From positions 19,310 through 83,309 of the forward strand of contig JALUTT010000164.1 of NCBI GenBank assembly GCA_027021705.1: DNA of 64,000 nucleotides, read 5' to 3'. A program made the translations under genes and the position numbers. Under the pieces are notes generated by a model. That model made no database searches and was not told where the DNA came from. It saw nothing but the letters and a program-made list of their open reading frames with translations. Below, in pieces: positions 3,413 to 22,875 of the stretch; within the stretch, counting starts at the first letter, position 1, and each line of letters starts with the position of its first letter. This stretch comes from Anaerolineae bacterium. GTDB lineage: Bacteria > Chloroflexota > Anaerolineae > S140-20.

Positions 3413-4726
3413 ATGAGGAGGCCACCCTTGATCTGCCTGCTGGGCGCTGTGCTAGTGACCTACTTATTCATAGGGATATGGAAGGCTACCCAGGCTCAAG
3501 GGAAAGTAGAGCACCAGCTTTGCATTGCCTTGGACGGCTCCGGAAGCATCTCAACTGATGACTTCGCCCTTCAAGTCACCGGCCTGGCTAATGCTGTTGG
3601 GGATCCCTCAGTGGTTCCCCAAGATGGGTCCGTTGAATTCAGCCTCGTTCAATTCGGTACATCTGATCCAGAGGGTGCCCGGGTAGAAGTCCAGGCCGTG
3701 GTCATTGACAGTCCCCAGACCGCTTCAAGCGTCGTTGCCACCATCCGAGCGCTGGAGCAAGGTGGTAATGGTACACCTATGGACGCCGGAATCGACCTGT
3801 GTACAGCCCAGATCACCGGTTCGCTTCATTTCGCCGACGCGCGCCACCAGGTCATTAACTTGTCTACAGATGGACAACCGACCGACAGAACAGCCACCTT
3901 GGCAGCACGGGATGCAGCTGTAGCCGCCGGGATTGACGAACTGGATGCTGAAGCCGTTGGAACGAGTGCTGATGTGGACTTCCTGGCAACGTTGGTCTAC
4001 CCCCAGCCCGGCACTGTTATTCCACCTGGAAGCTACTCACCTGGTTTCGTCCGCGTGATCAGCTCGTTCGCCGATTTTGAGGAAGCCATCCGAGAAAAAC
4101 TGCGCTATGTTTTCCAATCAACTCCCACTCCTCCTCCCATTCCCCAGGCTTACCCCGTTTACCTCCCCCTCGTCGTCAAGCCGGCCGCCCTGCCCGACCT
4201 CATCGTCCGCTCCCTCACCGTCCAACCCTCCTCCCTTTGGGCCGGCCAGCCCGCCTCCATCACCCTCCTCATCGAAAACATCGGCACCGCCCCCGCCAAC
4301 GGCCCCTTCTGGGTGGACCTCTACATCAACCCCGACCCCGCCCTGATGCCCCCCAAGACCAACCAGACCTGGGACCGGGCCGGCAGTCAGTTCGGCATCG
4401 CCTGGCTCATCACCCCTTCCCGCTCCCTCGCCCCAGGCGACCAGATCACCCTCACCTCTCAAGACTACGCCGACGACTGGAGCTTCTGGCCCGGCTACTT
4501 CACCCGCGTCGGCGACCAGGTCCTCTACGCTCAGGTGGACTCCTACAACGGCTCTTCCCCCTTCGCCGCCGTCGAGGAGTCGGACGAGAGCAACAACGCC
4601 TTCGGCCCGGTCTTGGTTCCCGTCGTCTGCCCTGTCACCTTGGGCGAGAGCTGCCTCCCCCTGGGAGACCAGGGCTTCGACCGGCCCTTCCGGCCCGCGC
4701 CCCGGCCTCTCCGGCCTCGACCTTAG
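3413..4726 (+). CDS. Secreted DUF1194-like vWA protein with an internal YPVYLPLVVK motif and a C-terminal CARDB-like domain
   Basis: ATG 3413 follows AGGAGG; signal peptide; LDGSGS MIDAS, LSTDG; PDLIV...NIGT...VEESDESNN CARDB signature. Confidence 0.8.
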   Translation: MRRPPLICLLGAVLVTYLFIGIWKATQAQGKVEHQLCIALDGSGSISTDDFALQVTGLANAVGDPSVVPQDGSVEFSLVQFGTSDPEGARVEVQAVVIDSPQTASSVVATIRALEQGGNGTPMDAGIDLCTAQITGSLHFADARHQVINLSTDGQPTDRTATLAARDAAVAAGIDELDAEAVGTSADVDFLATLVYPQPGTVIPPGSYSPGFVRVISSFADFEEAIREKLRYVFQSTPTPPPIPQAYPVYLPLVVKPAALPDLIVRSLTVQPSSLWAGQPASITLLIENIGTAPANGPFWVDLYINPDPALMPPKTNQTWDRAGSQFGIAWLITPSRSLAPGDQITLTSQDYADDWSFWPGYFTRVGDQVLYAQVDSYNGSSPFAAVEESDESNNAFGPVLVPVVCPVTLGESCLPLGDQGFDRPFRPAPRPLRPRP

Positions 4727-5183
4727 AGGCTGTCACCCTCCCGCAGGTCACGCGGTGCCCGGCGACAGCGATGGTTTATCGGAGGCTGCCTTGACGCGCT
4801 TCAGACCGTGGGGGGAATCTGCAGGCGGGTTAGCTTAGTAACGCTCTTGGAGGAAAGAACGATGGAGAAGAGAGGACTTCGATGGTTCGTGATGATGGTC
4901 TTTCTGGCCAGCCTGCTGGTGGTAGGGCTTCCCGGTCGGGGGGCGGCGGCGTTGGGGGTGGGGGTGCAGTTGACGCCCCGCCCGACGGTGCCGCCGGGCA
5001 CGGTGCCTCCGCCGACGCCCTGCCCGCCGACCTCGACGCCGGCGTTGGCTCCTTCACCGACGCCGGCCCCGCCGCTGCTCGCTTCGCCGACGCCGACCTC
5101 GGTGGTCATCCTGCCCGAGGCCGGAGCTGCCCCGTCCGGTCCTGGGGTCTCGCTTCTGGTCGTCCTGGGCCTGCTGGCGGTGG
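4151..5183 (+). repeat. Copy 1 of a ~1 kb near-identical duplicated cassette (YLPL motif + CARDB + intergenic + LPEAG gene)
   Basis: Aligns by eye with 21864-22875, with few substitutions and two small indels. Confidence 0.95.
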
Positions 5184-5233
5184 TCGTCGGGTTGGCCTGG
5201 CGATGCCAATGGCGGGCAAGAGGGACTGTCTGA
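4862..5233 (+). CDS. Small Pro/Thr-rich secreted protein with an LPEAG sortase-like sorting signal
   Basis: ATG 4862 follows GGAGG; signal peptide, PT linker, then LPEAG + hydrophobic helix + basic tail (WRCQWRAR). Confidence 0.75.
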   Translation: MEKRGLRWFVMMVFLASLLVVGLPGRGAAALGVGVQLTPRPTVPPGTVPPPTPCPPTSTPALAPSPTPAPPLLASPTPTSVVILPEAGAAPSGPGVSLLVVLGLLAVVVGLAWRCQWRARGTV

Positions 5234-5343
5234 GAAACCCCCTGAACCCGACTCCGGTGAGCTACCCTTATCGCTGGGCACTGCCCAACCTGCGGAGGAT
5301 TAAGGGCATCAAAATACCTAAATCCACAGCGAGAGGTGAAAGT

Positions 5344-8300
5344 ATGAAGGGAGATGGAAAATTTTTCAGCATATTGCCTATCCTGCTAGTCCTGGCCTTG
5401 CTTGCGAGCGGAGCACTGACAGCGCGGAAGCCTCAGCCAGTCTCTACGCCCGCGTTGGTGACAGCAGCAGAGGGACTCCGCTCCTCCTCGGAGGGCTCCA
5501 TCGCCACCCTCTCTCCACTCCCGCCCAGCGAGCAAGGAGAGGGTGCCAGAAGACAGAATGAGAGCACAGCCTCCGTGGACGAAGCCGTTCGCGCCCATGC
5601 TCAGAACCTACTCGATAGCCTCCCCCTCGACTTCATCCCCAACCAAGGACAGGTAGACGAACAGGTGGACTTCTACGTTAAGGGTCGTGACAAACTCATT
5701 TACTTTACCCCCCAGGGCCTCACCTTCGTCCTCACCACCATCCTTGAAACGAACAGCACAGTCGGGATAGACAACATACTGAACCCCTCATCACCACCCA
5801 CCGCTCCTCATCCGCAATCTGCTACCCGCTGGGTCGTCAAACTGGACTTCGTGGACGCCAACCCCGACGTGCATCCCGTGGGCGAGGAGAAGACCGACAC
5901 CACCGTCTCCTACTTCAAGGGCTCCCCTGACCAATGGCACACCGGCATCCCCACCTATCGCCGCATCGTCTACAAAGACCTGTGGCCGGGGATTGACCTG
6001 GCCTTCACCGGCACGGTCAACGAGCTCAAGTACGAGTTCATCGTCCGTCCGGGAGCAGACCCGGACCGGATCCGTCTGACCTACCGAGGTGCGGAGGTGG
6101 TCCAGGCTGCTGACGGCTCTCTGGAGATCACCACCCCCGTCGGCGGCTTCACCGACGTCTCCCCCACCGCCTACCAGGAGATTGAAGGCCGCCGGGTGCC
6201 TGTGTCGGTGGCTTACGACCTGGCCCCCCCGGTCGCCGACCCGCAACCTGCAACCCGCCACGTACGATTCGCCGTCGGCCCTTACGACCCCACCCGCCCG
6301 TTGGTGCTCGACCCCGCCATCTTGATCTACTGCGGCTACATCGGTGGCACGGGCGGTGACTATGGCCTAGGCATTGCCGTGGATGAAGCAGGAAATGCCT
6401 ACGTTGTAGGCCAAACTTACTCCTCTGAAAGCAGAGGGTTTCCCGTGTCCGCCGGACCGGACCCGACTTTCAACGATGATGATGACCCAGATGCTTTTGT
6501 CGCCAAGGTGCGAGCGGATGGGACAGGGCTAGACTACTGCGGCTATATCGGCGGTGCAAACGAAGACTCTGGCTGGGACATCGCTGTGGATGGGGCAGGG
6601 AATGCCTATATCGTAGGCACGACTTACTCCTCTCCTAGTGAGGGATTTCCTGTGACCGTCGGGCCAGACTTGACCTTCAATGGCTCCAAGGACGCTTTCG
6701 TCGCCAAGGTGCGGGCCGATGGAACGAGGCTGGACTACTGCGGCTACATCGGTGGGACAGATGAGGACTCCGGGTGGGGCATCGCCGTGGATGGAGCAGG
6801 GAATGCCTACATCGTGGGCCGAACCTACTCCTCTGAAAGCGAGGGCTTCCCCGTAGCCGTTGGGCCGGATTTAACCTTCAATGGTGATGACAATTCGGAT
6901 GCCTTCGTCGCCAAGGTGCAGGCGGATGGAGCAAGGCTGGACTACTGTGGCTACATCGGTGGCATAGACAACGATCTGGGCTGGGACATCGCCGTGGATG
7001 AGATAGGAAATGCCTACATCGTGGGCACAACTTACTCCTCTTTCGGCGAGGGCTTTCCCGTGGCCGTCGGGCCGGACTTGACCTTCAATGATGATGATGA
7101 TGAGCCAGATGCCTTCGTCGCCAAGGTGCGGGCGGATGGAACAGGGCTGGATTACTGTGGCTACATCGGTGGGACAGACGAGGACTCCGGCTGGGGTATT
7201 GCCGTAGACGGAGCAGGGAATGCCTACGTTGTGGGTACAACTTACTCCTCCCCCGGTGAGGGCTTTCCCGTGGCCGTCGGGCCGGACTTGACCTTTAACG
7301 GCCTCAAAGATGCCTTCGTCGCCAGGGTGCGAGCCGACGGGAGGTGGCTCGACTACTGTGGCTACATTGGCGGGTTGGATTGGGACGAAGGTCTCGGCAT
7401 TGCTGTAGACAGGGTAGGGAACGCCTACGTCGCAGGCACGACTCACTCCTCCCCTAGCGAGAACTTTCCCGTGATCGTCGGGCCGGACCTGACCTTCAAC
7501 GGTGGCTACAAGGACGCTTTCGTAGCCAAGGTGCAGGCCGGCGGAGTAAGGCTCGACTACTGTGGTTACATTGGCGGCTCAGCTTCTGACTACGGTTACG
7601 GCATCGCCGTGGATGGGACAGGAAATACCTACGTTGTGGGCACAACCGACTCCTCCCCCATCGAGGGCTTCCCAGTAACCATTGGACCGAGTCTGACCTT
7701 CAACGGCTACAGAGACGCTTTCGTGGCCAGGATATGGGCAGAGAGTGGATCAGGGCCCTTTATCCTCCCAGTGTATCCCGGAACTCACACCATCAGCAAC
7801 ACTGTTATGCAAGGCGGAACAACTTACCGCTACTTCCGCTTGCTCGATTCGACCCACAACCCCATATCCAATGCCACTATCACCCTCAGCACTGGCAGCA
7901 CCGCCACCACTGATGCTCAAGGCTACTTCACCGCCACCATTGCCGCTGATTCTCTAGGAGGTGTCGGAAGCTACATGGTAAGCATTCAAAGCGTGACTTA
8001 CGGAGGTCAAACTTATGATACCGCTGGGCAGCCTGCTTTTCCCGTTCAGGTCACCGATCGGCGCTATTCCTATGCTTGGAGCTATGGAGCGTCTACAAAG
8101 CTTAAAGGTGGCATCTCTGCCGGCCTTATCGCTTACCTGCAATATACCACCTCAGGTGGCATGGAACTCAAGCTAGATGAAAGCGACCCCAACATCTCCT
8201 CAGATGACGTTGTTTCGATGAAAGAGGACTTCAGTGACGAGGTTGGCATCGGTGGCGGCATAGGGATTGAGGGAGAAGTAAATATCCTTATCTTGAAGAT

Positions 8301-10221
8301 CAAAGGAGGAGCATCAGCGACATCGGAGTGGGCCATTCGTTCCATCGGCAGTACTCAGGCACGCTTCTCCAACCCCTACTCAGATAATGACCGCAAGGCC
8401 GCGGGCGTTTTCCTACTAGCTTCGGTGATTGATAGCATCGGACAGGCTTTCCCTGGACAACCCCTTGCTATGCGGCTCTTAAAATTGTCCCTCGATCGTG
8501 GAGCGCCTTATCGGGATTACATCTCTCGCCAGCAAGCTGGGCTAGGGAGCAAAATCACCCCGCTTCAGGCCAACGTGGGCGCAAGCGCCTCTTTGGGCAT
8601 CAAGCGGAGTGGCCTCGCCTGGGAAGAGCGCATCCTGGGCTTCGACCTGGTGGATGTGGGCGTGACCGTCGTGCAAATGAACACCCTCACCGACTACCGT
8701 GACCGCAACGAGTGGGGATTGGGCTATGAATCCGAGCACGAGATAAATTGGTCACTGCTTTCCTGGCAGATCGGGGACCTCAGGAACAAGCTTGCTGGCA
8801 CCATCGGTGACGGAGCTAAAAAGGCTAAGGTGGAACTCATCTTTGACAGTGACACCAACGCCTTAAAGCGGTTAGAAATTTCGTTTACTGGTGAGGGAAA
8901 TCCCTATGCTTTTACCGATGTATTAAAGGAAGAAGTGACCTTTAAGCTCATTATCCCCGCCAATTCCCTGGGTGATGACCGTCTTGCTCGTTTAGTAAAC
9001 ATCATCCGTCTGCTGAGCGCTGCCCAACGAATCGACACCGATCCGCTCCAGATAGGGCCCTCAGCAATGGCCGAGGAACTGAACACCCTGTTGGAAGGTC
9101 TGAGATATGCCGAATACGAGATCACAGTAGATGATGGGGCCGAAACACGCTTTGAGATCAGCTTGAGCGTGACAGCAGGGATTGACATCAGCCTGGGGCC
9201 GGGCCTCAAAATCAAGAAAGTACGTAGCCTGGTGAGAGAACGGGGCGTCTTCATCAACGGCCATCCTTACAGAACCGAATCCTATAATGCCGATGCCTAC
9301 GTCTCCCGCCCTGGCAAGTCCTGGCAAAGTTTGTCCACCAACGCTATGGGCGGGCTGTGGCTCCTGGTGCAAGACGCTTTTAGTTGGGTTTGGAAACAAG
9401 TAACATCGGGCGCAGGCTGGGTCATCAGCGCTATCTCCCGGACGGTGGACGGCATCATCCAAGGTGGCGCGCAGATCATTGCTCCACCGGGCACACAGCT
9501 CCACACAACGAATCCTGACCTACGGACAGGACCTATACAGCAAACAGAGCCCATCACCATCACCGCCATCGGTTGGGCACCTACCAGGCTTGGGAGCAGC
9601 ACAGCCCTCAACCTAGGCCCGACAACCGTTACGGCCTCTGGTGAGGGACTCGTGATCGGTGGTATCTACGCATTCCAGCCTTACACTCTGACCCTGAGCC
9701 CCGGCGCCACCCTTGTCATCACTTATACCGATGAAGCGGTTGCGGGAGTGAATGAGCACGCGATCGGGATGTTCCGCTGGAACCCAGAGGAAAGCAACTG
9801 GCAACCGCTGACGGCAATCTCAGACACGGCCCGTAACGTATTCACCGCCACCATCACCCAATTGGGCACCTTTGCTCTCGGGTACGATGTCACCCCACCT
9901 CAGATCACCATCTTGGAACCGGCAGACGGCAGCATCAACAACAACACGTTACCCCTCATCAGCGCTCTGGTGGTGGATACAGGAGGAGGAGTTGACCCAT
10001 CCACAGTGGAGATGCGATTGGATGGGCGATCTGTGGCAGCGGATTACATCACCAGTACGGGACAGCTCGTTTACTTGCCCCCAACACCGCTGGCAAATGG
10101 TCTCCACACAATAACGGTCTCAGCAAGAGACGTGTTGGGGAACGTCGGTTCTACATTGGCCACCTTCACTGTAGAGATACACTACACTCTCTACCTGCCG
10201 CTGATACTGCAGGATCGGTAA
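5344..10221 (+). CDS. Large secreted SBBP beta-propeller protein (7 YCGYIGG blades) with an unknown Gly-rich central domain, a GAIN/ZU5-like domain, an Ig-like domain and a YLPLILQ tail
   Basis: ATG 5344 follows GAGGTG (the ORF track's upstream extension overlaps the LPEAG gene). Signal peptide; FIPNQGQ N-terminal domain; 7 repeats of DAFVAKV...YCGYIGG. Confidence 0.85.
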   Translation: MKGDGKFFSILPILLVLALLASGALTARKPQPVSTPALVTAAEGLRSSSEGSIATLSPLPPSEQGEGARRQNESTASVDEAVRAHAQNLLDSLPLDFIPNQGQVDEQVDFYVKGRDKLIYFTPQGLTFVLTTILETNSTVGIDNILNPSSPPTAPHPQSATRWVVKLDFVDANPDVHPVGEEKTDTTVSYFKGSPDQWHTGIPTYRRIVYKDLWPGIDLAFTGTVNELKYEFIVRPGADPDRIRLTYRGAEVVQAADGSLEITTPVGGFTDVSPTAYQEIEGRRVPVSVAYDLAPPVADPQPATRHVRFAVGPYDPTRPLVLDPAILIYCGYIGGTGGDYGLGIAVDEAGNAYVVGQTYSSESRGFPVSAGPDPTFNDDDDPDAFVAKVRADGTGLDYCGYIGGANEDSGWDIAVDGAGNAYIVGTTYSSPSEGFPVTVGPDLTFNGSKDAFVAKVRADGTRLDYCGYIGGTDEDSGWGIAVDGAGNAYIVGRTYSSESEGFPVAVGPDLTFNGDDNSDAFVAKVQADGARLDYCGYIGGIDNDLGWDIAVDEIGNAYIVGTTYSSFGEGFPVAVGPDLTFNDDDDEPDAFVAKVRADGTGLDYCGYIGGTDEDSGWGIAVDGAGNAYVVGTTYSSPGEGFPVAVGPDLTFNGLKDAFVARVRADGRWLDYCGYIGGLDWDEGLGIAVDRVGNAYVAGTTHSSPSENFPVIVGPDLTFNGGYKDAFVAKVQAGGVRLDYCGYIGGSASDYGYGIAVDGTGNTYVVGTTDSSPIEGFPVTIGPSLTFNGYRDAFVARIWAESGSGPFILPVYPGTHTISNTVMQGGTTYRYFRLLDSTHNPISNATITLSTGSTATTDAQGYFTATIAADSLGGVGSYMVSIQSVTYGGQTYDTAGQPAFPVQVTDRRYSYAWSYGASTKLKGGISAGLIAYLQYTTSGGMELKLDESDPNISSDDVVSMKEDFSDEVGIGGGIGIEGEVNILILKIKGGASATSEWAIRSIGSTQARFSNPYSDNDRKAAGVFLLASVIDSIGQAFPGQPLAMRLLKLSLDRGAPYRDYISRQQAGLGSKITPLQANVGASASLGIKRSGLAWEERILGFDLVDVGVTVVQMNTLTDYRDRNEWGLGYESEHEINWSLLSWQIGDLRNKLAGTIGDGAKKAKVELIFDSDTNALKRLEISFTGEGNPYAFTDVLKEEVTFKLIIPANSLGDDRLARLVNIIRLLSAAQRIDTDPLQIGPSAMAEELNTLLEGLRYAEYEITVDDGAETRFEISLSVTAGIDISLGPGLKIKKVRSLVRERGVFINGHPYRTESYNADAYVSRPGKSWQSLSTNAMGGLWLLVQDAFSWVWKQVTSGAGWVISAISRTVDGIIQGGAQIIAPPGTQLHTTNPDLRTGPIQQTEPITITAIGWAPTRLGSSTALNLGPTTVTASGEGLVIGGIYAFQPYTLTLSPGATLVITYTDEAVAGVNEHAIGMFRWNPEESNWQPLTAISDTARNVFTATITQLGTFALGYDVTPPQITILEPADGSINNNTLPLISALVVDTGGGVDPSTVEMRLDGRSVAADYITSTGQLVYLPPTPLANGLHTITVSARDVLGNVGSTLATFTVEIHYTLYLPLILQDR
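5821..6345 (+). repeat. High-identity DNA repeat (pre-propeller domain) shared with 23351-23875
   Basis: Long exact runs, e.g. tacttcaagggctcccctgaccaatggcacaccggcatccccacc, occur in both copies. Confidence 0.9.
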
Positions 10222-10327
10222 GCGAGCAGTCCTCTTAATGTTGGTCATTCAGTTGAGGGGAGTCGAGGTGCGGTAAACGAAGACCAGATATCCAGGTCCA
10301 TCGAGTGACCTGAATCGAGGCAATGTT

Positions 10328-12966: not shown

Positions 12967-15588
12967 ATGCAAATCAGGAATACAGCTTACCGATGGTTGC
13001 TCATCGCGAGCAGTGTGCTCCTGTTGCTCCCGATGATGCCAAGTCGCCTAACGGTGGCTTCAACGGATCTCGCCTTCCAAACCCTCCGTTCCCTGGACAT
13101 TCTATCACCAACACAGAGTGATCCGGATTACGCCGGTCCCCATCACAGTCCCCAGAAGATCGTTATCCGTGTGACCAAGCCCGCTGACGGCTTGCAACGG
13201 AGTGATTTTACCGTCGAGGTCGGTGGAGAACCCGCCTATGTCGTCGTCGTCTGGGAGGGGAGTGATGAATACGCCCTTGAGGTCATTCCCCCCGATACAC
13301 TGGGCGCCAACGGGTTATATGACTTGATGGTCAGTGCTGCCGGTGAGAGTGACACAGAAGTCCAGGCGGTCAAATACGCCCCTGCCCAGAACGTGGATGT
13401 CGTCGTCGTCCTGGACCGGTCAGGAAGCATGTCCGGAAGCACAAACATCCCCGGCGTCAACAAACTGGAGGCTGCCAAGAAAGCAGCCATCCTCTTTGTG
13501 AACTTGATGGTGGATGGTGATAAGCTGGGGCTGGTCAGCTTCTCGACCATTGCTAAGCTGGAGTATGCCCTCACAACGGTCACAGCAGCCGTGCGCCAGG
13601 CCATTGTAGCGGCCATCACGCCCCTCTACCCCAGCGGCACGACAACCATTGGGGGCGGGCTTGAGGTCGCCCAAGACCAACTGGAGCAGTATGGCGCTGC
13701 CGACGAGCCTTGGGCTATCGTCCTGCTCTCCGACGGCCGGCACAATACGCCTCCCGATTGGTGGGATGTCCTGCCCCGTATTGAGCAGAGCAAGACCGCC
13801 GTACACACCATTGGATTGGGGACCGATGCGGATGAAGCAACAATGCTGGAGATCGCTTCACGGACCGGAGGAACCTATAGCTATGCCCCCGATGCCAGTC
13901 AACTCCAGCGCATCTACAACACCATTGCCGGGACCGTGCGCAATCAGCAGACACTGATCTCGCTGTCCGGCAACATCTCCCCCGGCGGAAACGTCACGAA
14001 AACCGTCATCGTGGATTCAACGGTGACCGAAGCGGTCTTCTCCGTGGGGTGGAACAAGGCGAGCACCCACATCCAGATGACCTTGATACGTCCCGATGGG
14101 AGCCTTCTGGACCCAACAGTAGCAGCCAGCGATCCCACCGTCCGATATGTCTCCGGTGCCACCTTTGCCTACTATCACGTGGAGCGTCCCCTGGTGGGAG
14201 AGTGGATCGTCCAGCTCAGCAGTAGCTCGACCACGCGGGCCGTTGGCGTGGCGGGGACAGACCAGGCCGATATAGATACTTACTCCCTGGTTGTGAGCGG
14301 CCAGACAAACCTGACGCTACGTCTCTACGCCGATGAGAGGACCTATCCCATCGCCGGGATCATTCGCCTCAGCGCCACGTTGGCCGATACGGAACCGATC
14401 ACCACGGCCCGCGTTGTGGGTGTTGGTACCGGACCGACGGGACACACTTACACTTTTAACCTCTATGACGATGGGGCGCACCAGGATGGGGCCGCAGCCG
14501 ATGGCGTCTATGCTGGTGCGTATCCCAAGACCTACGTCGAGGGCACCCACACCTTCGTAGTTCGGGCAGAGGGCAAGGCAACCAGCGGTGAAGCCTTCGT
14601 CCGTCAGGCCGAGATGGCTTTTAACGTCACAGGCACACCATCGTCCGACACCACGGTCAACGTCACGTTGCAGGAAGCGTGGAACTTGATTTCCTTCGAT
14701 GTAATGCCTCACGATACCGACGTAGCCACCGTGATGAACGCGATTGCCAACAATTACACGGCCGTGCTGGGCTTCGATGGCGAGGGATACAGTTACTACC
14801 CCCAACTTCCCGATACCATCAACACCCTTCAGGAGATGGATCCCTACCATGGCTACTGGATTCGGAGCACTGCCGTTGTGACGCTGCCTGTCGTTGGCCC
14901 TGAGGTGCCTGATAACACTCCCATCAGCCTACGCCCCGGATGGAACTTGGTGAGTTACCTACCCAATGCCTCAATGACCATCACCGATGCCCTCCGCTCG
15001 ATAGAGGGTCTGTACACAGCCGTTTTAGGCTATGATCAGGGTGCAATGTCCTCCTACCCGGATCTGCCCGGCTATATGAACACCCTCCACACGATGGAGC
15101 GCTTCCGGGGCTATTGGATTCATATGACTGCACCAGCTACCTTGATCTATCCCAGCGGTAACAACGCTGGGGTGATAGCTACTGCCTCCCTCCCCCCGAA
15201 CGCGCCTCAATCGGCGGCTGGTATCAATCCAACAAACCAGTGGGTCAACTTCTACGGCTTTGAGGTCCTAGTGGATGGAAAGCCGGCCCCAATCGGGACG
15301 ACGATCTCCGTCTATGATCCCGATGGTGTGAAGATCGGAGAGATGCAGATCCGCCGTGCAGGCACTTACGGCGTGCTCTCGGCCTACGCTGACGACCCGC
15401 TCACGCCGGAGGATGAGGGAGCTCTTCCGGGTGATCGGCTGACCTTCTATATCAACGGCCAGCCCGCCCTGGCGGTCGGTCCTGACCAGCCTATATGGAC
15501 AGCCCCTGGAGAACGTCATCAAGTCAACCTATGGATTGGGGCAGCGCCTTTCCGGGTCTACATCCCCCTGATCCTGCGAACTCCGTAA
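12967..15588 (+). CDS. Secreted vWA protein with a choice-of-anchor-X-like domain, two GWNL..GYWI repeats, a 'WVNFYG' domain and a VYIPLILR tail
   Basis: AGGAGG RBS; signal peptide; DRSGS MIDAS; LYDDGAHQDGAAADGVY; paralogous to the vWA part of 3..3248. Confidence 0.85.
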   Translation: MQIRNTAYRWLLIASSVLLLLPMMPSRLTVASTDLAFQTLRSLDILSPTQSDPDYAGPHHSPQKIVIRVTKPADGLQRSDFTVEVGGEPAYVVVVWEGSDEYALEVIPPDTLGANGLYDLMVSAAGESDTEVQAVKYAPAQNVDVVVVLDRSGSMSGSTNIPGVNKLEAAKKAAILFVNLMVDGDKLGLVSFSTIAKLEYALTTVTAAVRQAIVAAITPLYPSGTTTIGGGLEVAQDQLEQYGAADEPWAIVLLSDGRHNTPPDWWDVLPRIEQSKTAVHTIGLGTDADEATMLEIASRTGGTYSYAPDASQLQRIYNTIAGTVRNQQTLISLSGNISPGGNVTKTVIVDSTVTEAVFSVGWNKASTHIQMTLIRPDGSLLDPTVAASDPTVRYVSGATFAYYHVERPLVGEWIVQLSSSSTTRAVGVAGTDQADIDTYSLVVSGQTNLTLRLYADERTYPIAGIIRLSATLADTEPITTARVVGVGTGPTGHTYTFNLYDDGAHQDGAAADGVYAGAYPKTYVEGTHTFVVRAEGKATSGEAFVRQAEMAFNVTGTPSSDTTVNVTLQEAWNLISFDVMPHDTDVATVMNAIANNYTAVLGFDGEGYSYYPQLPDTINTLQEMDPYHGYWIRSTAVVTLPVVGPEVPDNTPISLRPGWNLVSYLPNASMTITDALRSIEGLYTAVLGYDQGAMSSYPDLPGYMNTLHTMERFRGYWIHMTAPATLIYPSGNNAGVIATASLPPNAPQSAAGINPTNQWVNFYGFEVLVDGKPAPIGTTISVYDPDGVKIGEMQIRRAGTYGVLSAYADDPLTPEDEGALPGDRLTFYINGQPALAVGPDQPIWTAPGERHQVNLWIGAAPFRVYIPLILRTP

Positions 15589-15721: not shown

Positions 15722-16606
15722 ATGACACACTGGAAGATAGGGAACGGGCTTATGCACACCGGCATCCGCATCATCACGGTGCTGGTCGTGCTCGCTGTTG
15801 GTAGCCTGTCTCCTGCCTGGGCCCGATCTGGAGCCCAGGTCAGTCCCACTACAGAGTGGGTCAACTTCTACGGAGTGAACACCACCTGGAACGGGGAGCT
15901 TGTTCCGGCAGGAACAGTAATTGCCGCCTACGATCCTCAAGGGACGTTGTGTGGTCAGTTTGTCGTCCACACGCCGGGCCGCTACGGCTTGTTGGCCTGC
16001 TACCGGGATGATCCCAATACACCCGAAGACGAAGGCGCCGAACCTGGCGATAGCATCACGTTCACGATGAATGGTCAGGCTGCGGTCCAGCTTGGTCCGG
16101 ACAGCGCTCGCTGGACCAGCAATGGCGACCTGATGCAGGTGGAGTTGAGCGCTGGAGGAGCGGCCAGTGCTCCGTCGGGTACAATCCGAGGCACGGTCTT
16201 TCTCGACGCCGATGGGGATGGCATTTATGACGCCGGAGAGGCACCCATTGCTGGCGTTACAGTCACCGCGATCTCTAATGGCGGCTTTGAAATCCCCCTG
16301 AGATCTGGAGAAGATGGTACTTTCGGTTTTGTCGGAATACACTCGGCCCACTGGACACTGCGGGTAACCGTGCCCGAGGGCTATGCTGCCAGCGGCCCAA
16401 CCCTCTACACAGACATCTGGCTCGGTGCAGGGAACTGGCAGGTCCTGGACAAGAACTTCGGTCTGGTCAGCACAGCCCCCCTCCTGCTCCCCGTCGCCGG
16501 CAGTGAATCGCAGGGGCTCACCATCGCTCTGGGGCTCCTCATCGGCGGCGGTCTGCTGGTCGGAGGGAACCTGTCCCTGAGGCGAAGGAGGCAACGGCAG
16601 GGATAG
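15722..16606 (+). CDS. Secreted 'WVNFYG' domain + SdrD-B-like domain protein with an LPVAG sortase-like anchor
   Basis: Signal peptide; GTIRGTVFLDADGDGIYDAGEAPIAGVTVT; LPVAG + hydrophobic helix + RRRRQR. Confidence 0.8.
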   Translation: MTHWKIGNGLMHTGIRIITVLVVLAVGSLSPAWARSGAQVSPTTEWVNFYGVNTTWNGELVPAGTVIAAYDPQGTLCGQFVVHTPGRYGLLACYRDDPNTPEDEGAEPGDSITFTMNGQAAVQLGPDSARWTSNGDLMQVELSAGGAASAPSGTIRGTVFLDADGDGIYDAGEAPIAGVTVTAISNGGFEIPLRSGEDGTFGFVGIHSAHWTLRVTVPEGYAASGPTLYTDIWLGAGNWQVLDKNFGLVSTAPLLLPVAGSESQGLTIALGLLIGGGLLVGGNLSLRRRRQRQG

Positions 16607-16761
16607 ACCTCAGCACAACCGACAGCGCACCTGAATGGCTGGACCTGGCAGGTCTGGACGGGGCTGCGCCTCTTGCCCAAGGCAACCAGATCACCTATGT
16701 CAGAGAAGCAGCCGCCGCAAAGACCTACCAGGTCCTTATTCGTTTACAAACGGGGGGAAGG

Positions 16762-19143
16762 ATGTTAACTCGCGTAAGAATGATTCTTCTAACGGTGGCC
16801 GTACCGTTGGTACTAGCACTGTTGCCAGGCGTGCTCACCGCCGGACATGCCGGTCGTATAGCAGGCAATAAGGGTATGTTTGTTACAGCTCGTTCCTCTT
16901 CTTCTGATGCTTGGAATGTGGAGCTCGTAAGCCAGATTGGCGGTTCTACCCTCGCTGCAGTCGTGAGAGGAGACTACGTCTATATCGGTGAGGGGCCACG
17001 GTTAACGATTCTGGAAGTTTCCACCCCAACCGCTCCGATCGTTCTCGGACGGACTGAGGTATTACCCGGCATAGTCCAAGATATAGCGATAGCAGGCAAC
17101 TATGCTTACATTGCCGACGCCCAGGGAGGCTTACGCATCGTAGATGTCTCTAATCCAGCTGCCCCTAGTGAGTTGGGAATCTTTGACACAACAGGGATAG
17201 TTCAAGGAGTGGCCGTAGCTGGAAGCTACGCCTATATCGTGGACTATAAGGATGGCCTGTACATCATTGACATCTCTAATCCAGCCACTCCTAAAGAAGC
17301 CGGATTCTACGCAACACCAAGCACTGCTCTGGGCGTGGCCGTAGCAGGAAGGTATGCTTACATCGCGGACTACGACAGCGGCTTGCATATCATTGATGTC
17401 TCTAATCCGGCCACCCCCAGGAGGATAGGATCTTATGATACGCCCGGTCACGCCCAAAATGTGACAGTGGTCGGCAGATATGCTTATGTTGCAGATTACT
17501 GGGGTGGGGTGCGCATTATTGACGTCTCCGACCCATCAACTCCCATTGAGGTGAGCAACTTCCAAACAACATCAGGACCAGGAGGCCCGGTAGATGTGGC
17601 AGTGGCCGGAAACTACGCCTACATCGCTGATTATGGAGGCGGCCTCCATATCCTAAACGTCTCCAACCCTGCTCTTCCCACCGAAGTGGGTGCTTACGAT
17701 ACCACGAGCCTACTCGCAGGCATCGCGGTGACCGGCACCTATGCTTACGCTGCTGCTTGGAGTGGTGGTCTACACATTGTTGACATCTCCAACCCTGCTT
17801 TACCCTCAGAAGTAGGAGCCTATGATCCACCGGGATACACCGAGGGCTTAACCGTGTCCAAGGGCTATGCCTACATAGCTGATTATAGCGCCGGGTTGCG
17901 CATCATTGATGTCTCTCAACCTACCACTCCCATCCAAGTAGGTACCTACACGACACCGGGACTCGGCCGAAACGTGACTGTGGTCGGCGACTACGCCTAT
18001 GTGGCCGATGGCGATCTACATATCATCGAGGTCTCCAATCCCGCCGCTCCCGTCGGGGTAAGCACTCATACCACACCAGGGGCAGCGTGGAACACAGCCC
18101 TCGACGGAGACTACCTCTATGTTGCCAACTACGGCACCGGTCTGAGCATCATCAATGTCTCCAACCCTTCAGCTCCCACCGATGTCAGCTTCCTCGCTAT
18201 GCCGGGAGGAGCTTTCGACGTGGCAGTAGTGGGAAACTATGCCTATGTCGCCAATGCTCCTACGTGGAGTGGGGATCACTGGATAGGCGCCGGCCTGCGC
18301 ATCCTCGATGTCTCCAATCCAGCAGATCCCAGTGAGGTCAGCTTCTATGCTACACCAGGGCTTGCCCGCGAGGTCACTGTGGCCAAGGGATATGCTTACA
18401 TCGCCGATGGGGGCCCCGGCCTTCGTATCCTTGATGTCTCCAACCCGACTGCTCCCAGCGAGATAGGATCTTTTACATCTGGACTTGCTATGGGAGTGTC
18501 TATAGCTTGGAATTATGCTTTCATCACTGGGAGTAAATTATACGTCATTGACATCTCCGACCCTGCATCCCCCCGGGAAGTAGGCTCTTACACCACATCA
18601 GGAGGCGGAGGTGTGGAGATAGCCGGACACTACGCCTACGTTGCTGACGGGAGCGGAGGACTGCTCATTCTGAAGCCTCCACTGCCTATCTCAGCCACCA
18701 TCTCCAGCGACAATGGCGTTCTCTCCTCTACAGTAGATAACACTGCTTACTTCTTTCCAACGGGGACCTTCACTGCCCCCGTACTTATCACCCATACCAT
18801 CCGATTCCCCAAAGATGCTCCCCTGCCAAGAGATTTGGTGGGTATCGGCCACTACTTTAGGACCACAGCGACATACAGTGGGACCGGTCGGCCAGCTCAG
18901 ATTGCGCAGCCCTACACCATCACTGTGAGATACACTGAAGCAGCAAGAGGAACGGCTATGGAGAGCACGTTGGCCCTCTACTGGTGGAATGAGGAAGCAA
19001 AACAGTGGTCTCGGCAGGGTATTACCAGCACGGTGAACACGGCTACTAACCAAATCACCACCCAAGTGGACCGTCTCGCCTTTTTCGCCGTGCTGGGAGA
19101 GACCCAACGAGTCTACCTGCCGTTGACATCGAAAGGGCCATAA
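16762..19143 (+). CDS. Secreted LVIVD-repeat protein (about two propellers) with a GAIN/ZU5-like domain and a VYLPLTSK tail
   Basis: About 14 YAYIAD..GLxIIDVSNP repeats; signal peptide. Confidence 0.85.
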   Translation: MLTRVRMILLTVAVPLVLALLPGVLTAGHAGRIAGNKGMFVTARSSSSDAWNVELVSQIGGSTLAAVVRGDYVYIGEGPRLTILEVSTPTAPIVLGRTEVLPGIVQDIAIAGNYAYIADAQGGLRIVDVSNPAAPSELGIFDTTGIVQGVAVAGSYAYIVDYKDGLYIIDISNPATPKEAGFYATPSTALGVAVAGRYAYIADYDSGLHIIDVSNPATPRRIGSYDTPGHAQNVTVVGRYAYVADYWGGVRIIDVSDPSTPIEVSNFQTTSGPGGPVDVAVAGNYAYIADYGGGLHILNVSNPALPTEVGAYDTTSLLAGIAVTGTYAYAAAWSGGLHIVDISNPALPSEVGAYDPPGYTEGLTVSKGYAYIADYSAGLRIIDVSQPTTPIQVGTYTTPGLGRNVTVVGDYAYVADGDLHIIEVSNPAAPVGVSTHTTPGAAWNTALDGDYLYVANYGTGLSIINVSNPSAPTDVSFLAMPGGAFDVAVVGNYAYVANAPTWSGDHWIGAGLRILDVSNPADPSEVSFYATPGLAREVTVAKGYAYIADGGPGLRILDVSNPTAPSEIGSFTSGLAMGVSIAWNYAFITGSKLYVIDISDPASPREVGSYTTSGGGGVEIAGHYAYVADGSGGLLILKPPLPISATISSDNGVLSSTVDNTAYFFPTGTFTAPVLITHTIRFPKDAPLPRDLVGIGHYFRTTATYSGTGRPAQIAQPYTITVRYTEAARGTAMESTLALYWWNEEAKQWSRQGITSTVNTATNQITTQVDRLAFFAVLGETQRVYLPLTSKGP

Positions 19144-19298
19144 CCTGGATTCCCCCCCCGTCCTGGAGGCCCAACATCGAGACTGCGACCTTACCTGAAA
19201 TCTAACAATCTAACAACGGGTTGGGTGTGATCCCCCCTTAGCCACGCTCAAGACGTTAAGGTGACCAAATCGCGATAGATCCGAAGGAGGGCTCGAAA

Positions 19299-22200
19299 AT
19301 GCGCGATGTTTCTAGGGCTGTCCGGCTGATGATGCTCATCGTCGTCCTCGCCGGGATGGTGTACCTCCTCTTGTGGGGGCTCTCTATCTACGCCGCCGAA
19401 GGAGCACGCCTCCCCGCCGAGACAAAGGCCCGCGAGGATGCCGTCCTCCAGGAGGCCCTCGCCCCCGGCACCTCCCCGGTGATGACCTTCGCATCCGCCA
19501 ACGTCGTCCTGACCGTCACTGTGGAGGCCACTTCTACCGTAGCCTGGGGAGAAGTGGCTTACTTCGTCAACTACTCCGTCAGCGACTCTCCCGCCCCCAG
19601 CGCCACCCTGGTCTTCACGATGCCGGTGACCTCCTACACCTACGATGGGGTGCGCTACGAGTACCAGGCCGACTGGGCCGGGTTCGCCACGGGCGATTAC
19701 ACCTATGATTATGCCTCCCGTCGGATCATCTGGACCTTGGGTACGGTGCCGGACGGCACGGCGGGGCAGGAGATGGTCATCGTACGGTTTCCCGCCGGTC
19801 CTCTTGATGGCAGCGTCTTTCGGACCACGGCGGCCTTTGGGGATGCAGGGGGAACCCACATCACGGCGGATGCCCCCCCTGTCATCATCCGCACCGAGGC
19901 CCTGGTCCAGCTGGAGAGCATCTACCCAGGGGAAGTATGCCCCGCGCGATCCATCCACTACTCACTGATCACCCGCAACACCGGCACCAGCGACCTCTTC
20001 AACCTGGTGCTCACCGACACCCTGCCGACCGGCATCACCCTGATCACGGCGACTATGCCTTTCAGTCAGGCCGGTTCGGTGATCACTTGGACGTTCCCCT
20101 ATCTACCTGTAGGCGACGATTGGCTGGTTGACGTGGTCATCACAACCGATGCAAGCCTAGCAGGAACAAGCGTTCCCAACCTGGCCCGCGTCACGTGTGA
20201 CCAGAACACTTCAGACGATGCCCAGTATGACATCCAGGTCCTACAGCCCTACCTCATCCTATCCAAACAAGGCCCTTCTTACATCCGCCCAGGGGATACC
20301 TTCACCTACTGCATCAAGCTCCAGGGCAGCTGCATTTCAGGACAGGCTGTGATGACAGACACCTTGCCGGTCGGGCTGACGGCAATCACGGCCACACCAC
20401 CCTACACGTTGGCCGGAAACCAGGTCATTTGGCCCCACGTGAGTGTGGACCGGCTCTACACCCTTACGGTTCAGGCAGATAACGGCCTCGCCTTGGGCAC
20501 AGCTGTGACCAATCTCGCTGAAGCCTTAGATCCAGGAGTCTTTACGGTCTCTATGACCCACTTCGCTTTGGTGACGCCAACAGTGCCCTTAGAAGCCGAC
20601 AAATTCAGATACTCCGTGTACGCCTCAGTTGGCTTCTTCCGTATAAAGCTTGCCAACTCGAGCACAACTCCCGTCACCGACCTAGACATCGTAGATCGAG
20701 TGCCCACGAACACTCTTTTCACCTACGCCACCTCGACACGCTGTTCCTGCTGGTGCTTCGCTCCCACCGTATCCATCAGTGTACATTACACCCCCTCTCT
20801 GGCGGCACCTCCCCTCGACGATCCTGGATGGCTGCCCTATTCAGGAGGCAGCGGGCCCTACGGCTCCGAGACCCGGTGGGTCCGCTGGCATATCCCTTCC
20901 CTGGCTTATCAGTGCACAACGTTGGAGATAGGGGTTCTGCACCTCGGTCTCCCCGAGGGCACTCTCATCTACAACACTGCCTGGTACACCAGCCCCCAGG
21001 CCTCCGGCATCCTCACGGCTACCTATACCGTCCCACCCCAACCTCCCCTCTACCTCTCCACTTGGGCCTACCCCTCCCTGGTCAGCCCTGACCAGGAGGT
21101 CGAGTTTGGGATTGAGTATTGGAACCCTACCAACATCTCGGCCACCCACACCCTCCTCACCTCCACCCTCCCCATCACCGCCAGCTTCGTCAGCGCCGAT
21201 CAGGGTGGGACCTACATCTCTAAAACCCATCAGGTCGTCTGGGACCTGGACACCCTCGGTCCTGACAAGCGGGGCATCGTGACCGTGCGCGTCTTCGTCC
21301 CCCGAGGCACCCTCGACCGCTCCCCCATCTGCCACCAGGCCCTCCTCAGCTCCGCCGAGCACCCAACGGCGGGACCCAAGGAAGCGTGCAGCACCGTGCG
21401 GGCCAGGCTGGTCTTCAAAGTCACCAAGGAGAGCGACAGCCCCATCTACCTCCCCGGCAGCACCGTCACCTACACCCTCACCTACCGCAACATCGGCGAC
21501 GGCGCCGTCGCCCACCTCAGCGTCCTGGACCGCCTCCCCAAGGAGATGACCTTCGTCACCGCCACCGCCTCCCCCGACGAGAAACTCCTCTTCAGCGACA
21601 ACCCCGCCTCCTCCGACGCCCCGCCCCCCCTCGACGACCCCTCCTGGACCCCCCATCCCCCCACCAGAACCACCTGGGTCCGCTGGAAACGCCTTGCCCC
21701 CGTCCAGATCGAAACCACCTACGCGATGACCCTCGTCCTGCGCAACCAGCCCACCTCCCCCATCGGCACCCAGATCACCAACACCGTCATCATCGTGGGG
21801 GAAAACCTCCCCTTCGCCCGCACCGCCCAGAGCATCCACCTGGTCGAGCAGATCCCTCACGTCTACCCCGTCTACCTCCCCCTCATCGTCAAGCCGGCCG
21901 CCCTGCCCGACCTCATCGTCCGCTCCCTCACCGTCCAACCCTCCTCCCTTTGGGCCGGCCAGCCCGCCTCCATCACCCTCCTCATCGAGAACATCGGCAC
22001 CGCCCCCGCCAACGGCCCCTTCTGGGTGGACCTCTACATCAACCCCGACCCCGCCCTGATGCCCCCCAAGACCAACCAGACCTGGGACCAGGCCGGCAGT
22101 CAGTTCGGCATCGCCTGGCTCATCACCCCCTCCCTCTCCCTCGCCCCAGGCGACCAGATCACCCTCACCTCTCAAGACTACGCCGACGACTGGAGCTTCT

Positions 22201-22439
22201 GGCCCGGCTACTTCACCCGGGTCGGCGACCAGGTCCTCTACGCTCAGGTGGACTCCTACAACGGCTCTTCCCCCTTCGCCGCCGTCGAGGAGTCGGACGA
22301 GAGCAACAACGCCTTCGGCCCGGTCTTGGTTCCCGTCGTCTGCCCTGTCACCTTGGGCGAGAGCTGCCTCCCCCTGGAGGACCAGGGCTTCGACCAGTCC
22401 TTCCGGCCTGCACCCCGGCCTCTCCGGCCTCGACCTTAG
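19299..22439 (+). CDS. Secreted DUF11 (B_ant)-repeat protein with an internal YPVYLPLIVK motif and a C-terminal CARDB-like domain
   Basis: Repeated PGxTxTY...N.G....LTDTLP motifs; the C-terminal ~190 aa are almost identical to those of 3413..4726. Confidence 0.85.
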   Translation: MRDVSRAVRLMMLIVVLAGMVYLLLWGLSIYAAEGARLPAETKAREDAVLQEALAPGTSPVMTFASANVVLTVTVEATSTVAWGEVAYFVNYSVSDSPAPSATLVFTMPVTSYTYDGVRYEYQADWAGFATGDYTYDYASRRIIWTLGTVPDGTAGQEMVIVRFPAGPLDGSVFRTTAAFGDAGGTHITADAPPVIIRTEALVQLESIYPGEVCPARSIHYSLITRNTGTSDLFNLVLTDTLPTGITLITATMPFSQAGSVITWTFPYLPVGDDWLVDVVITTDASLAGTSVPNLARVTCDQNTSDDAQYDIQVLQPYLILSKQGPSYIRPGDTFTYCIKLQGSCISGQAVMTDTLPVGLTAITATPPYTLAGNQVIWPHVSVDRLYTLTVQADNGLALGTAVTNLAEALDPGVFTVSMTHFALVTPTVPLEADKFRYSVYASVGFFRIKLANSSTTPVTDLDIVDRVPTNTLFTYATSTRCSCWCFAPTVSISVHYTPSLAAPPLDDPGWLPYSGGSGPYGSETRWVRWHIPSLAYQCTTLEIGVLHLGLPEGTLIYNTAWYTSPQASGILTATYTVPPQPPLYLSTWAYPSLVSPDQEVEFGIEYWNPTNISATHTLLTSTLPITASFVSADQGGTYISKTHQVVWDLDTLGPDKRGIVTVRVFVPRGTLDRSPICHQALLSSAEHPTAGPKEACSTVRARLVFKVTKESDSPIYLPGSTVTYTLTYRNIGDGAVAHLSVLDRLPKEMTFVTATASPDEKLLFSDNPASSDAPPPLDDPSWTPHPPTRTTWVRWKRLAPVQIETTYAMTLVLRNQPTSPIGTQITNTVIIVGENLPFARTAQSIHLVEQIPHVYPVYLPLIVKPAALPDLIVRSLTVQPSSLWAGQPASITLLIENIGTAPANGPFWVDLYINPDPALMPPKTNQTWDQAGSQFGIAWLITPSLSLAPGDQITLTSQDYADDWSFWPGYFTRVGDQVLYAQVDSYNGSSPFAAVEESDESNNAFGPVLVPVVCPVTLGESCLPLEDQGFDQSFRPAPRPLRPRP

Positions 22440-22875
22440 AGGCTGTCACCCTCCCGCAGGTCACGCGGTGCCCGGCGACAGCGATGGTTTATCGGAGGCT
22501 GCCTATGACGCGCTTCAGACCGTGGGGGGAACCTGCGGGAGGGTTAGCTTAGCAAACGCTCAACGCTCTTGGAGGAAAGAACGATGGAGAAGAGAGGACT
22601 TCGATGGTTCGTGCTGATGGCCTTTCTGGCCGGCCTGCTGGTGGTAGGGCTTCCCGGTCGGGGGGTGGCGGCGTTGGGGGTGGGGGTGCAGTTGACGCCC
22701 CGGCCGACGGTGCCGCCGGGCACGGTGCCTCCGCCGACGCCCTGCCCGCCGACCTCGACGCCGGCGTTGGCTCCTTCACCGACGCCGACCTCGGTGGTCA
22801 TCCTGCCCGAGGCCGGGGCTGCCCCGTCCGGTCCTGGGGTCTCGCTTCTGCTCGTCCTGGGCCTGCTGGCGGTGG
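21864..22875 (+). repeat. Copy 2 of the ~1 kb duplicated cassette
   Basis: Matches 4151-5183; it lacks 27 bp that lie between ccgacgccg microhomologies in the LPEAG gene. Confidence 0.95.

What the first reader, a model, noticed from the sequence alone, without database searches (positions are those of the whole stretch)
4151..22875. Domain shuffling caught in the act: a 1-kb cassette duplicated with its breakpoint at the YLPL motif
Seen: 4151-5183 and 21864-22875 are near-identical. Identity starts at Y-P-V-Y-L-P, so one CARDB tail is grafted onto unrelated heads (DUF1194-like vWA versus DUF11 repeats). It ends inside the TM-coding part of the LPEAG gene, and both copies are followed by an SBBP gene. 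The very C-rich codon style runs well upstream of the junction in the DUF11 gene but starts abruptly near 4120-4150 in the vWA gene. Inference: the DUF11 locus was the donor, and tag-coding DNA serves as a recombination joint for building new surface proteins.
Basis: partly seen in the sequence, partly recalled or inferred. Interest (0 to 1): 0.72.

Follow-up and report, generated by a model that had tools for sequence, protein, structure and literature searches.

The report
Portable two-gene anchor cassette, recently copied
A 1-kb piece of DNA occurs twice in this bacterial genome and places the same protein tail, plus a small neighbouring gene, behind two unrelated surface proteins; across Chloroflexota that tail and neighbour usually sit together, so they likely form a kit that tethers whichever surface protein it is copied onto, whereas the idea that the short tag's DNA itself drives the swap is only partly supported.

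Summary
The duplicate is real: 4151-5183 and 21864-22875 are 97.6% identical outside three gaps, read depth over it is about the sum of the two flanks, and both junctions appear in a second study. Outgroups make the DUF11 gene the donor. The motif is NCBIfam's YLP-box (noted before by this scan in other genomes; the cassette was not). In relatives, head swaps do cluster at the tag (8 of 10), and a second contig holds an equivalent 1.2-kb duplicate. But here the tag was most likely imported with the tail, not used as a crossover site: shared sequence starts about 20 nt before it, 0 of 52 vWA-head relatives carry it, and only this pair among 84 tags in the genome shows a recent junction. A second near-identical tract lies in the SBBP genes, pointing to patchy ectopic recombination between neighbouring loci. 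And the cassette is a conserved gene pair: YLP-box, CARDB-type domain ending in a Pro-Arg-Pro motif, followed by an exported partner that starts with the same motif (54 of 68, background 18 of 541). Binding between them is inferred, untested.

The parts
4151..5183 (+). Cassette copy A (recipient locus): YLP-box, CARDB-type tail, 100-bp element, most of the LPEAG partner gene
21864..22875 (+). Cassette copy B (likely donor locus)
4139..4150 (+). Weakly similar left edge (I-P-Q-A vs I-P-H-V at 21852-21863; 7 of 12 nt); likely true start of shared ancestry
   Evidence: a related strain carries the A-like base at 21857
3398..4726 (+). vWA (DUF1194) head + YLP-box + CARDB tail gene, 437-442 aa; the chimera
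19299..22439 (+). DUF11-repeat head + YLP-box + CARDB tail gene, 1046 aa; architecture also found in another organism
4160..4180 (+). YLP-box of copy A, internal (181 aa before the stop)
   Evidence: NF050076 16.1 bits (cut-off 15), NF053834 14.2 (cut-off 10)
21873..21893 (+). YLP-box of copy B, internal
   Evidence: NF053834 14.3 (cut-off 10); NF050076 14.0, under its cut-off of 15
4190..4627 (+). CARDB-type beta-sandwich (copy B about 21903-22340)
   Evidence: Pfam PF07705; model matches 3idu, Z 11.7, rmsd 1.9 over 106 residues
4691..4723 (+). C-terminal Pro-Arg-Pro motif of the tail (copy B 22404-22436)
   Evidence: sequence; similar end in 76 of 123 terminal domains vs 112 of 2127 control ORFs
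4733..4830 (+). 100-bp dispersed element with inverted ends (REP/MITE-like), copy B 22446-22545; 215 hits in the genome
4862..5233 (+). Partner gene A: signal peptide, PRPT motif (4976-4987), P/T-rich linker, LPEAG (5111-5125), TM, basic tail; 123 aa
22584..22946 (+). Partner gene B, 120 aa; PRPT 22698-22709, LPEAG 22803-22817; stop overlaps the SBBP start
5821..6345 (+). Second near-identical tract, in the DUF7948 part of SBBP gene A (gene 5341-10221)
   Evidence: 485 of 525 nt identical to 23351-23875; synonymous identity 0.71-0.96; third paralog 60-84%
23351..23875 (+). Matching tract in SBBP gene B (gene 22943-25648)
   Evidence: shared read pieces at raised depth

Best explanation
The two copies hold one conserved unit, a YLP-box tag, a CARDB-type tail and a small exported partner gene, which was likely copied from the DUF11 locus onto the end of the vWA gene by ectopic recombination, and whose edge likely lies at the tag because the unit only works whole, not because tag DNA is a recombination site. 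Shown: two real copies; the same unit behind dozens of unrelated heads in Chloroflexota; junctions clustering in the linker that holds the tag; a second homogenised tract 620 bp downstream. Inferred: exchange was anchored on the right by related partner/SBBP DNA and joined on the left through a few shared bases in the Pro-rich linker about 20 nt before the tag, either in one step or as an older fusion whose interior was later refreshed by gene conversion (I cannot separate the two). The vWA protein thereby likely lost a SdrD_B-LPVTG sortase tail and gained a tail that is predicted to dock on the partner: the CARDB-type domain would bind a Pro-Arg-Pro peptide, present at its own C-terminus and at the mature N-terminus of the wall- or membrane-anchored partner. 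That binding step is untested.
For: Copies real. Donor polarity from outgroups and from two C-rich patches in an otherwise low-GC3 A locus. Tag imported: shared sequence from about -21 nt, shared Y-P-V absent from P0055 and seen in no other tagged protein examined, 0 of 52 head relatives tagged. Unit: tag 10-23 aa before the domain in 126 of 145 domains and, with a tag-free profile, in 92 of 125 (69 strict; 3 of 2200 random windows); 46 head clusters among 123 and 38 among 115. Partner: signal peptide + [PT]RP in 62 of 102 next ORFs vs 0 of 52 after tag-and-stop genes, 54 of 68 vs 18 of 541, in at least three unrelated partner families; all 4 tag-CARDB genes of this genome have such a partner next door or 2 kb on; the sister tails L039/L040 (SH-aLRT 98) have a similar short LPxTG partner. 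L167 duplicated exactly tail + whole partner. Second tract. Left edge more diverged than the interior, 7 of 34 vs 11 of 554, p 2e-5.
Against: In L189/L184 likeness starts after the tag and each head keeps a different tag, and 19 of 123 heads have a homologue in this genome that ends tag-then-stop: both fit tails being added at a resident tag. The vWA gene's direct ancestor is not seen (nearest 63%), so it may have had a tag. DNA beyond the right end (5200-5600) is no more alike than shuffles (p 0.17-0.53), so a pre-existing right-hand anchor next to the tract is not shown. If the edge is counted from 4151 only, its excess divergence is not significant (2 of 22, p 0.08). 40 of 102 next ORFs lack the motif by my rule, only 29 of 62 motif partners have a TM in their last 60 residues, and the loci are kin, so counts overstate.
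Confidence: 0.6

Rival explanations
1. Tag DNA is the joint: the vWA gene already ended in a YLP-box, and a crossover in the 20-30 nt of similar tag-coding DNA appended the tail; with about 70 tag-ended genes the genome has many acceptors.
For: 8 of 10 junctions within -19..+29 aa of the tag over about 11,000 aa surveyed (7 of 9 independent, p 1e-3 under my rough assumption that a quarter of linkers hold the tag). L189/L184 diverge in the tag and agree after it. 9 of 46 head clusters also occur as tag-then-stop. Two differences flank a 12-nt identical core inside the tag (4159, 4172). 7% of tag pairs share 12 nt or more.
Against: Shared sequence starts upstream of the tag here, in L167 (about -33 nt) and in L133/L124 (about -21 nt). 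0 of 52 head relatives tagged. Tag DNA averages 60% identity; 0.34% of pairs share 20 nt, below the 25-35 bp MEPS quoted in PMC6382021 (passages). Only 1 of 110 dispersed duplicates and one pair among 84 tags is affected; other recent patches in tagged genes end far from tags.
Confidence: 0.22
2. The 100-bp inverted-repeat element in the middle of the cassette is nicked by a REP-associated transposase, and repair from the other locus copies about 500 bp on each side.
For: Element sits near the centre of both copies; the L167 duplicate also has a palindrome after the stop; the genome encodes two Y1_Tnp proteins; a degenerate inverted remnant lies at 5252-5295.
Against: 215 hits in the genome but none of the other 109 dispersed duplicates contains one; both Y1_Tnp genes are flanked by other repeats; the second tract holds no element; it does not explain the in-frame join.
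Confidence: 0.07
3. Both copies came from a third source (another gene or incoming DNA), so neither locus is the donor; the last third of the DUF11 gene would then be an import too.
For: C-rich style in the DUF11 gene starts near 20900-21200, where two other runs show a contig break and a 2.5-fold depth drop.
Against: P0055 aligns with the DUF11 protein end to end, across that point; no third copy in the 95%-complete assembly.
Confidence: 0.08
4. Assembly artefact: one copy placed twice, or a chimera of strains.
For: Short-read metagenome assembly in 183 contigs with 4.5% contamination; no long reads; which right flank follows which left flank is not proven by contigs.
Against: Depth about doubles over the repeat with four unique flanks at equal depth; 24 fixed differences; both junctions seen in another study; a separate assembly gives the same vWA-tag-CARDB protein with two changes.
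Confidence: 0.03

Closest known systems
YLP-box putative sorting motif (NCBIfam NF050076 sort_motif_YLP, NF053834 ultrashort_CTERM)
   Same: Both junction motifs score over at least one model's cut-off; 57 of 70 regex hits in the genome are C-terminal.
   Different: Here the box is internal, followed by a 181-aa tail. The tail's own C-terminal Pro-Arg-Pro motif and the partner gene match no NCBIfam model. No paper in the library names the box.
Staphylococcus aureus lpl cluster unit of evolution (Tsuru and Kobayashi 2008, PMC2568036; abstract and outline seen)
   Same: The moving unit spans the 3' part of one ORF, the intergenic DNA and the next ORF.
   Different: lpl genes are tandem paralogs recombining at a highly conserved central sequence in every ORF; here heads are unrelated and the tag DNA is short and only 60% alike.
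Homology-facilitated illegitimate recombination (HFIR; passages of PMC6382021; the one-anchor-plus-microhomology picture is recalled from de Vries and Wackernagel 2002, not read)
   Same: Homologous DNA on one side (partner/SBBP paralogs), a few shared bases on the other.
   Different: Described for natural transformation; here an intragenomic, 17.7-kb-distant donor is inferred, and the DNA directly right of the tract is not detectably homologous.
Domain shuffling of bacterial adhesins (PMC10952558, 5 passages; P. gingivalis gingipain adhesin domains with ABM motifs, PMC5266723, 12 of 30 passages)
   Same: Modular surface proteins gain and swap domains; short motifs flank the swapped domains.
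   Different: The passages seen do not describe an anchor kit that spans two genes.
CARDB domain (Pfam PF07705; PF1109, PDB 3idu)
   Same: Fold and Pfam match.
   Different: This subfamily is about 140 aa with invariant F-W-V-D-x-Y, two further conserved Trp and acidic residues, is C-terminal in 123 of 125 cases and is tied to the tag and partner.
Sortase cell-wall sorting signal (LPxTG + TM + basic tail)
   Same: Partner has LPEAG + TM + basic tail; two sortases in the genome; 12 similar tails.
   Different: Ala replaces Thr; no anchor model matched; partners elsewhere use LPxTG, IPEP-type or no anchor.

Membership tests
YLP-box (NF050076 / NF053834) | HMM score over the curated cut-off | tested here: met
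   Copy A 16.1 (15) and 14.2 (10); copy B 14.3 (10) but 14.0 (15) on NF050076
YLP-box (NF050076 / NF053834) | Position at the extreme C-terminus (implied by the model name ultrashort_CTERM) | tested here: not met
   181 residues follow in both proteins; internal position is the rule for this tail
YLP-box (NF050076 / NF053834) | Acts as a sorting signal | not testable with these tools
   Putative even in NCBIfam; no paper found
CARDB (PF07705) | Pfam score over cut-off and Ig-like beta-sandwich fold | tested here: met
   32.2 bits (22.7); 36 of 47 relatives match; 3idu Z 11.7, rmsd 1.9, 106 aligned
Sortase substrate (partner gene) | LPxTG-like motif + TM + basic tail, signal peptide, sortase in the genome | tested here: inconclusive
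   Layout present and two sortases over cut-off; motif is LPEAG and no anchor model matched
lpl-type unit of evolution | Unit = 3' ORF part + intergenic + next ORF | tested here: met
lpl-type unit of evolution | Highly conserved DNA in every paralog that serves homologous recombination | tested here: not met
   Tag DNA 60% alike, 20-nt exact runs in 0.34% of 3486 pairs
HFIR product | Homologous anchor on one side | tested here: inconclusive
   Partner ends faintly alike and SBBP genes paralogous with a 92% tract, but 5200-5600 not above shuffles
HFIR product | 3-10 bp microhomology at the illegitimate join | tested here: inconclusive
   7 of 12 nt at 4139-4150; the pre-event recipient sequence is unknown
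Transposon or MITE-borne cassette | Terminal inverted repeats or target-site duplication at the cassette ends; transposase inside | tested here: not met
   No shared direct repeat of 5 nt or more and no inverted match over 6 nt between ends; none; no transposase or recombinase family among 14 proteins scanned

The most novel reading that the evidence does not exclude
YLP-box + CARDB-type domain + Pro-Arg-Pro, paired with a downstream exported protein that displays the same Pro-Arg-Pro motif at its mature N-terminus, is an undescribed, phylum-wide, portable two-gene tether: the domain swaps its own C-terminal peptide for the partner's, so any secreted protein onto which the 1-kb kit is copied becomes non-covalently tied to the cell surface. 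This window and L167 catch the kit being copied, here replacing a sortase anchor.
Probability: 0.35. Interest if true: 0.72.

Novelty: new variant of a known kind. Interest (0 to 1): 0.5.

Why it matters
Mosaic surface proteins made by ectopic recombination are well known, so the duplicate alone is ordinary. Its value is what it outlines. The copied piece matches a gene pair conserved across Anaerolineae, Caldilineaceae, Chloroflexia and Herpetosiphonaceae (titles; 749 representatives at E under 1e-30) that no NCBIfam model or paper in my searches describes. It gives a concrete, cheap test of how YLP-box cargo might be held on the cell, an open question since the box is only a curated motif, and two near-identical natural chimeras to use as substrates. 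It also shows the tag linker is the favoured swap point for this tail, which bears on how Chloroflexota build their large surface-protein repertoires.

Tried and rejected
Complex prediction of the CARDB-type domain with the partner peptide was not available, so there is no verdict on binding. The ESM Atlas gave no answer. A monomer model from a deeper alignment raised confidence of residues 181-190 from 44 to 76; rows had been picked for the motif and coordinates could not be inspected, so I draw nothing from it. No RNA holder listed. Rfam: no match in the window; a riboswitch reading of the 100-bp element was dropped. Idea that the A-specific end of the partner gene is the remnant of the vWA protein's old sortase tail: scores 10-15 against P0002-P0004, within the 8-20 background; not supported. 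Excision or amplification of the 17.7 kb: depth inside (66, 56) equals outside (61, 54) in one run of contigs; rare events would not show. No genome with a vWA-SdrD_B-LPVTG gene among 400 class genomes with this query, so its neighbourhood could not be read. Partner search in 300 genomes gave only weak low-complexity hits. Transposon ends: none. Paper searches that found nothing on the motif or the pair; supplements were not read and could mention the motif. 60 of 137 loci have a 10-nt inverted repeat after the tail's stop, without a control, so not used. Rows dropped: domains with under 45-60 aa upstream or partial profile cover, 40 of 142 loci without a callable next ORF, 14 near-copies before the tree, which is the quick tree only, 25 of 150 hits not full-length.
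Full report
Observation. The window lies at the end of an 83-kb contig of a 5.19-Mb, 66% GC assembly in 183 contigs, 95% complete. Its DNA occurs in hydrothermal vent metagenomes. The closest relatives of its proteins are titled Anaerolineae or Chloroflexota, so the organism is likely of that class (inference). In the tail 12 of 192 codons differ, 6 silently. Domain calls are confirmed, as is the codon step in the vWA gene, C3 0.34 to 0.71.

Is it real? In the run that may be the source, the four unique flanks have contig depths 61, 66, 56 and 54 and the shared pieces 110 and 98; both unique upstream contigs stop 30 bases after the last difference inside the tag. In a second study, from a strain about 1% different, one contig crosses the vWA junction without a difference, variants are read across the DUF11 junction, and the shared piece again has about the summed depth. 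Contig depth is not a copy number, and contigs cannot phase left and right flanks, but two copies are the plain reading. Depth inside and outside the 17.7 kb is equal, so no common deletion or circle shows.

Direction. A full-length homologue of the DUF11 protein, tag and tail included, exists in another organism (P0055, 558 of 1007 identical). The 52 other proteins found with the vWA head carry no YLP-box; the three closest (62-63%) end in SdrD_B, LPVTG and a TM helix, many others in PEP-type tails (five more loci agree). So the vWA gene is the chimera and has likely changed its anchor.

The tag. The motif is the YLP-box of NCBIfam (name first met in earlier findings of this scan, then tested). 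It ends 57 of 70 regex hits in this genome. No paper in the library names it.

A second tract. The SBBP genes behind both copies share 485 of 525 nt at 5821-6345 and 23351-23875, silent sites included, against 60-84% to a third paralog. Between the tracts lie about 620 bp that are poorly alike in the first 400 and patchy (up to 83%) after. In locus A both tracts are C-rich patches in low-GC3 genes; in locus B they belong to one C-rich stretch from about 21000 to 24000. The two loci have therefore exchanged DNA in patches, B to A. The genome is repeat-rich: 4378 pairs of 150 bp or more at 88% or more.

Do swaps fall at the tag? Among 145 full-length copies of this tail domain in fetched loci, 126 have the tag 10-23 residues upstream (the queries included the tag, a bias). 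With a tag-free profile against 1.84 billion representatives, 92 of 125 have it by a relaxed and 69 by a strict pattern, against 3 of 2200 random windows; many of the rest look degenerate. Heads fall into 46 clusters among 123 and 38 among 115; on a quick tree of 109 tails ten head groups need 23 changes where 9 is the minimum and shuffles give 43. Of 36 linked pairs with tails 70% identical or more, 26 stay alike to the end of the sequence held, and 10 show a junction: 8 within -19 to +29 residues of the tag, 2 further up. Locus L167 holds an independent 1.2-kb direct duplicate that starts about 30 nt before the tag and runs through the tail and the whole next gene, behind DUF7507/DUF11 and PPC-Big_9 heads whose last domains are still about one third alike.

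Is tag DNA the joint? Clustering is expected under two readings: crossover in tag homology, or survival only of fusions that keep tag and tail together. At DNA level, likeness starts about 21 nt before the tag here, 33 nt before it in L167, 21 nt before it in L133/L124, 3-15 nt before it in L005/L006, and after it in L189/L184. Here both copies share a Y-P-V just before the tag that P0055 lacks and that no other tagged protein examined has (its count of 4 is these two proteins entered twice). Tag DNA of different genes in this genome is 60% alike; 7% of 3486 pairs share 12 nt and 0.34% share 20 nt, short of the 25-35 bp given for RecA in PMC6382021 (passages). Only this pair among 84 tags, and 1 of 110 dispersed duplicates, has an end at a tag; other recent patches in tagged genes end hundreds of bases away. 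For the other side: L189/L184, and 19 of 123 heads having tag-then-stop homologues at 30-57% identity. I conclude the tag was imported here, while crossover at a resident tag may happen in some cases.

What the cassette is. The next ORF could be called for 102 of 142 loci. In 62 it has a signal peptide followed closely by a [PT]-R-P motif, against 0 of 52 ORFs after tag-then-stop genes in this genome; by a stricter signal rule 54 of 68 against 18 of 541. The partners belong to at least three unrelated groups: a carboxypeptidase-regulatory-like fold (my label from memory), a Trp-rich domain, and short P/T-rich LPxTG proteins like the one here; 29 of 62 have a TM near the end. The tail itself ends in a similar motif in 76 of 123 terminal domains against 112 of 2127 control ORFs (alignment consensus LPPRP from rows chosen for it). 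All four tag-CARDB genes of this genome have such a partner adjacent or 2 kb on, and the sister tails have a partner of the same build. These loci are kin, so the counts overstate independence, but the motif persists while the partner body changes.

How it likely works. Shown: a CARDB fold with conserved aromatic and acidic residues, the paired motifs, the conserved gene order, sortases in the genome. Inferred, from the general knowledge that aromatic grooves bind proline-rich peptides (recalled): the domain binds Pro-Arg-Pro, first its own tail, then the partner's exposed N-terminus, so the large protein is tethered through the small anchored one. That would explain why the duplicates here and in L167 span tail plus partner, and why a vWA protein could give up its own sortase tail. 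Alternatives are that the motif is a processing signal shared by co-exported proteins, or a relic of a split gene. Binding was not tested.

The 100-bp element. It lies mid-cassette, has 14-bp inverted ends and 215 hits on 62 contigs. It came along with the copy; nothing ties it to the ends.

Verdict. Observation confirmed; donor confirmed; tag-as-joint partly supported. The event belongs to a known kind, ectopic recombination that shuffles surface-protein modules, closest to the two-gene unit of the S. aureus lpl cluster (PMC2568036, abstract and outline), but without a long conserved crossover sequence. The new element is the conserved tag-tail-partner kit. Interest 0.5; about 0.7 if the tether is shown.

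Noticed in passing
window 4733-4830 and 22446-22545; genome-wide: 100-bp element with 14-bp inverted ends, 215 hits on 62 contigs, 119 of them clustered; no Rfam match; the two Y1_Tnp genes are flanked by other repeats, so its mobiliser is unknown. A degenerate inverted remnant lies at 5252-5295.
   Followed up: partly
window 12967-15588 and 15722-16606: A second cargo/partner-like pair: the last domain before the YLP-box of the large vWA protein is repeated (48% over 125 aa) at the N-terminus of the next gene, which ends SdrD_B-LPVAG-TM. Same logic of a shared element at cargo end and partner start.
   Followed up: partly
protein P0065 (cluster of the vWA protein): Near-identical vWA head (one change in 233 aa) joined to an unrelated 35-aa end without a tag, about 30 nt before the cassette edge; that end is not in this genome. 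Real allele or chimeric contig.
   Followed up: partly
window 19300-21026: In two runs of another study the 5' part of the DUF11 gene has 2-3 times the depth of its 3' part, with a contig break at about 21000, near where the C-rich codon style begins: possibly another context for this head in related strains.
   Followed up: no
window 21852-21872: A related strain reads two other bases here, making a perfect 9-bp tandem repeat just before the tag; the Y-P-V likely arose by that small duplication.
   Followed up: partly
window 63-3248; contigs C49, C132, C125, C77: Other internal YLP-boxes followed by different tails of about 175-200 aa or more (NIDO-like in the window), so CARDB is not the only tail added after the tag.
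   Followed up: no
L167:427-1640 and 4989-6165: Independent 1.2-kb duplicate of tag + CARDB tail + palindrome + whole partner gene behind two different heads.
   Followed up: yes
G000 C14:14321-16453 and C49:17400-18500: Two Y1_Tnp (RAYT-like) genes each beside long tandem arrays of their own repeat; a further 120-bp dispersed family with over 150 hits exists.
   Followed up: no
window 1-30000: Cluster of large exported proteins with GC 52-60%, below the genome's 66%, several ending in a YLP-box; the ORF at 25764-27998 appears frameshifted near 27900 with CARDB-like coding continuing to about 28550.
   Followed up: no
G000 C56:28476-30539: A 677-aa ORF sits between the C56 tag-CARDB gene and its PRP-LPVTG partner, apparently inserted into the pair.
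   Followed up: no
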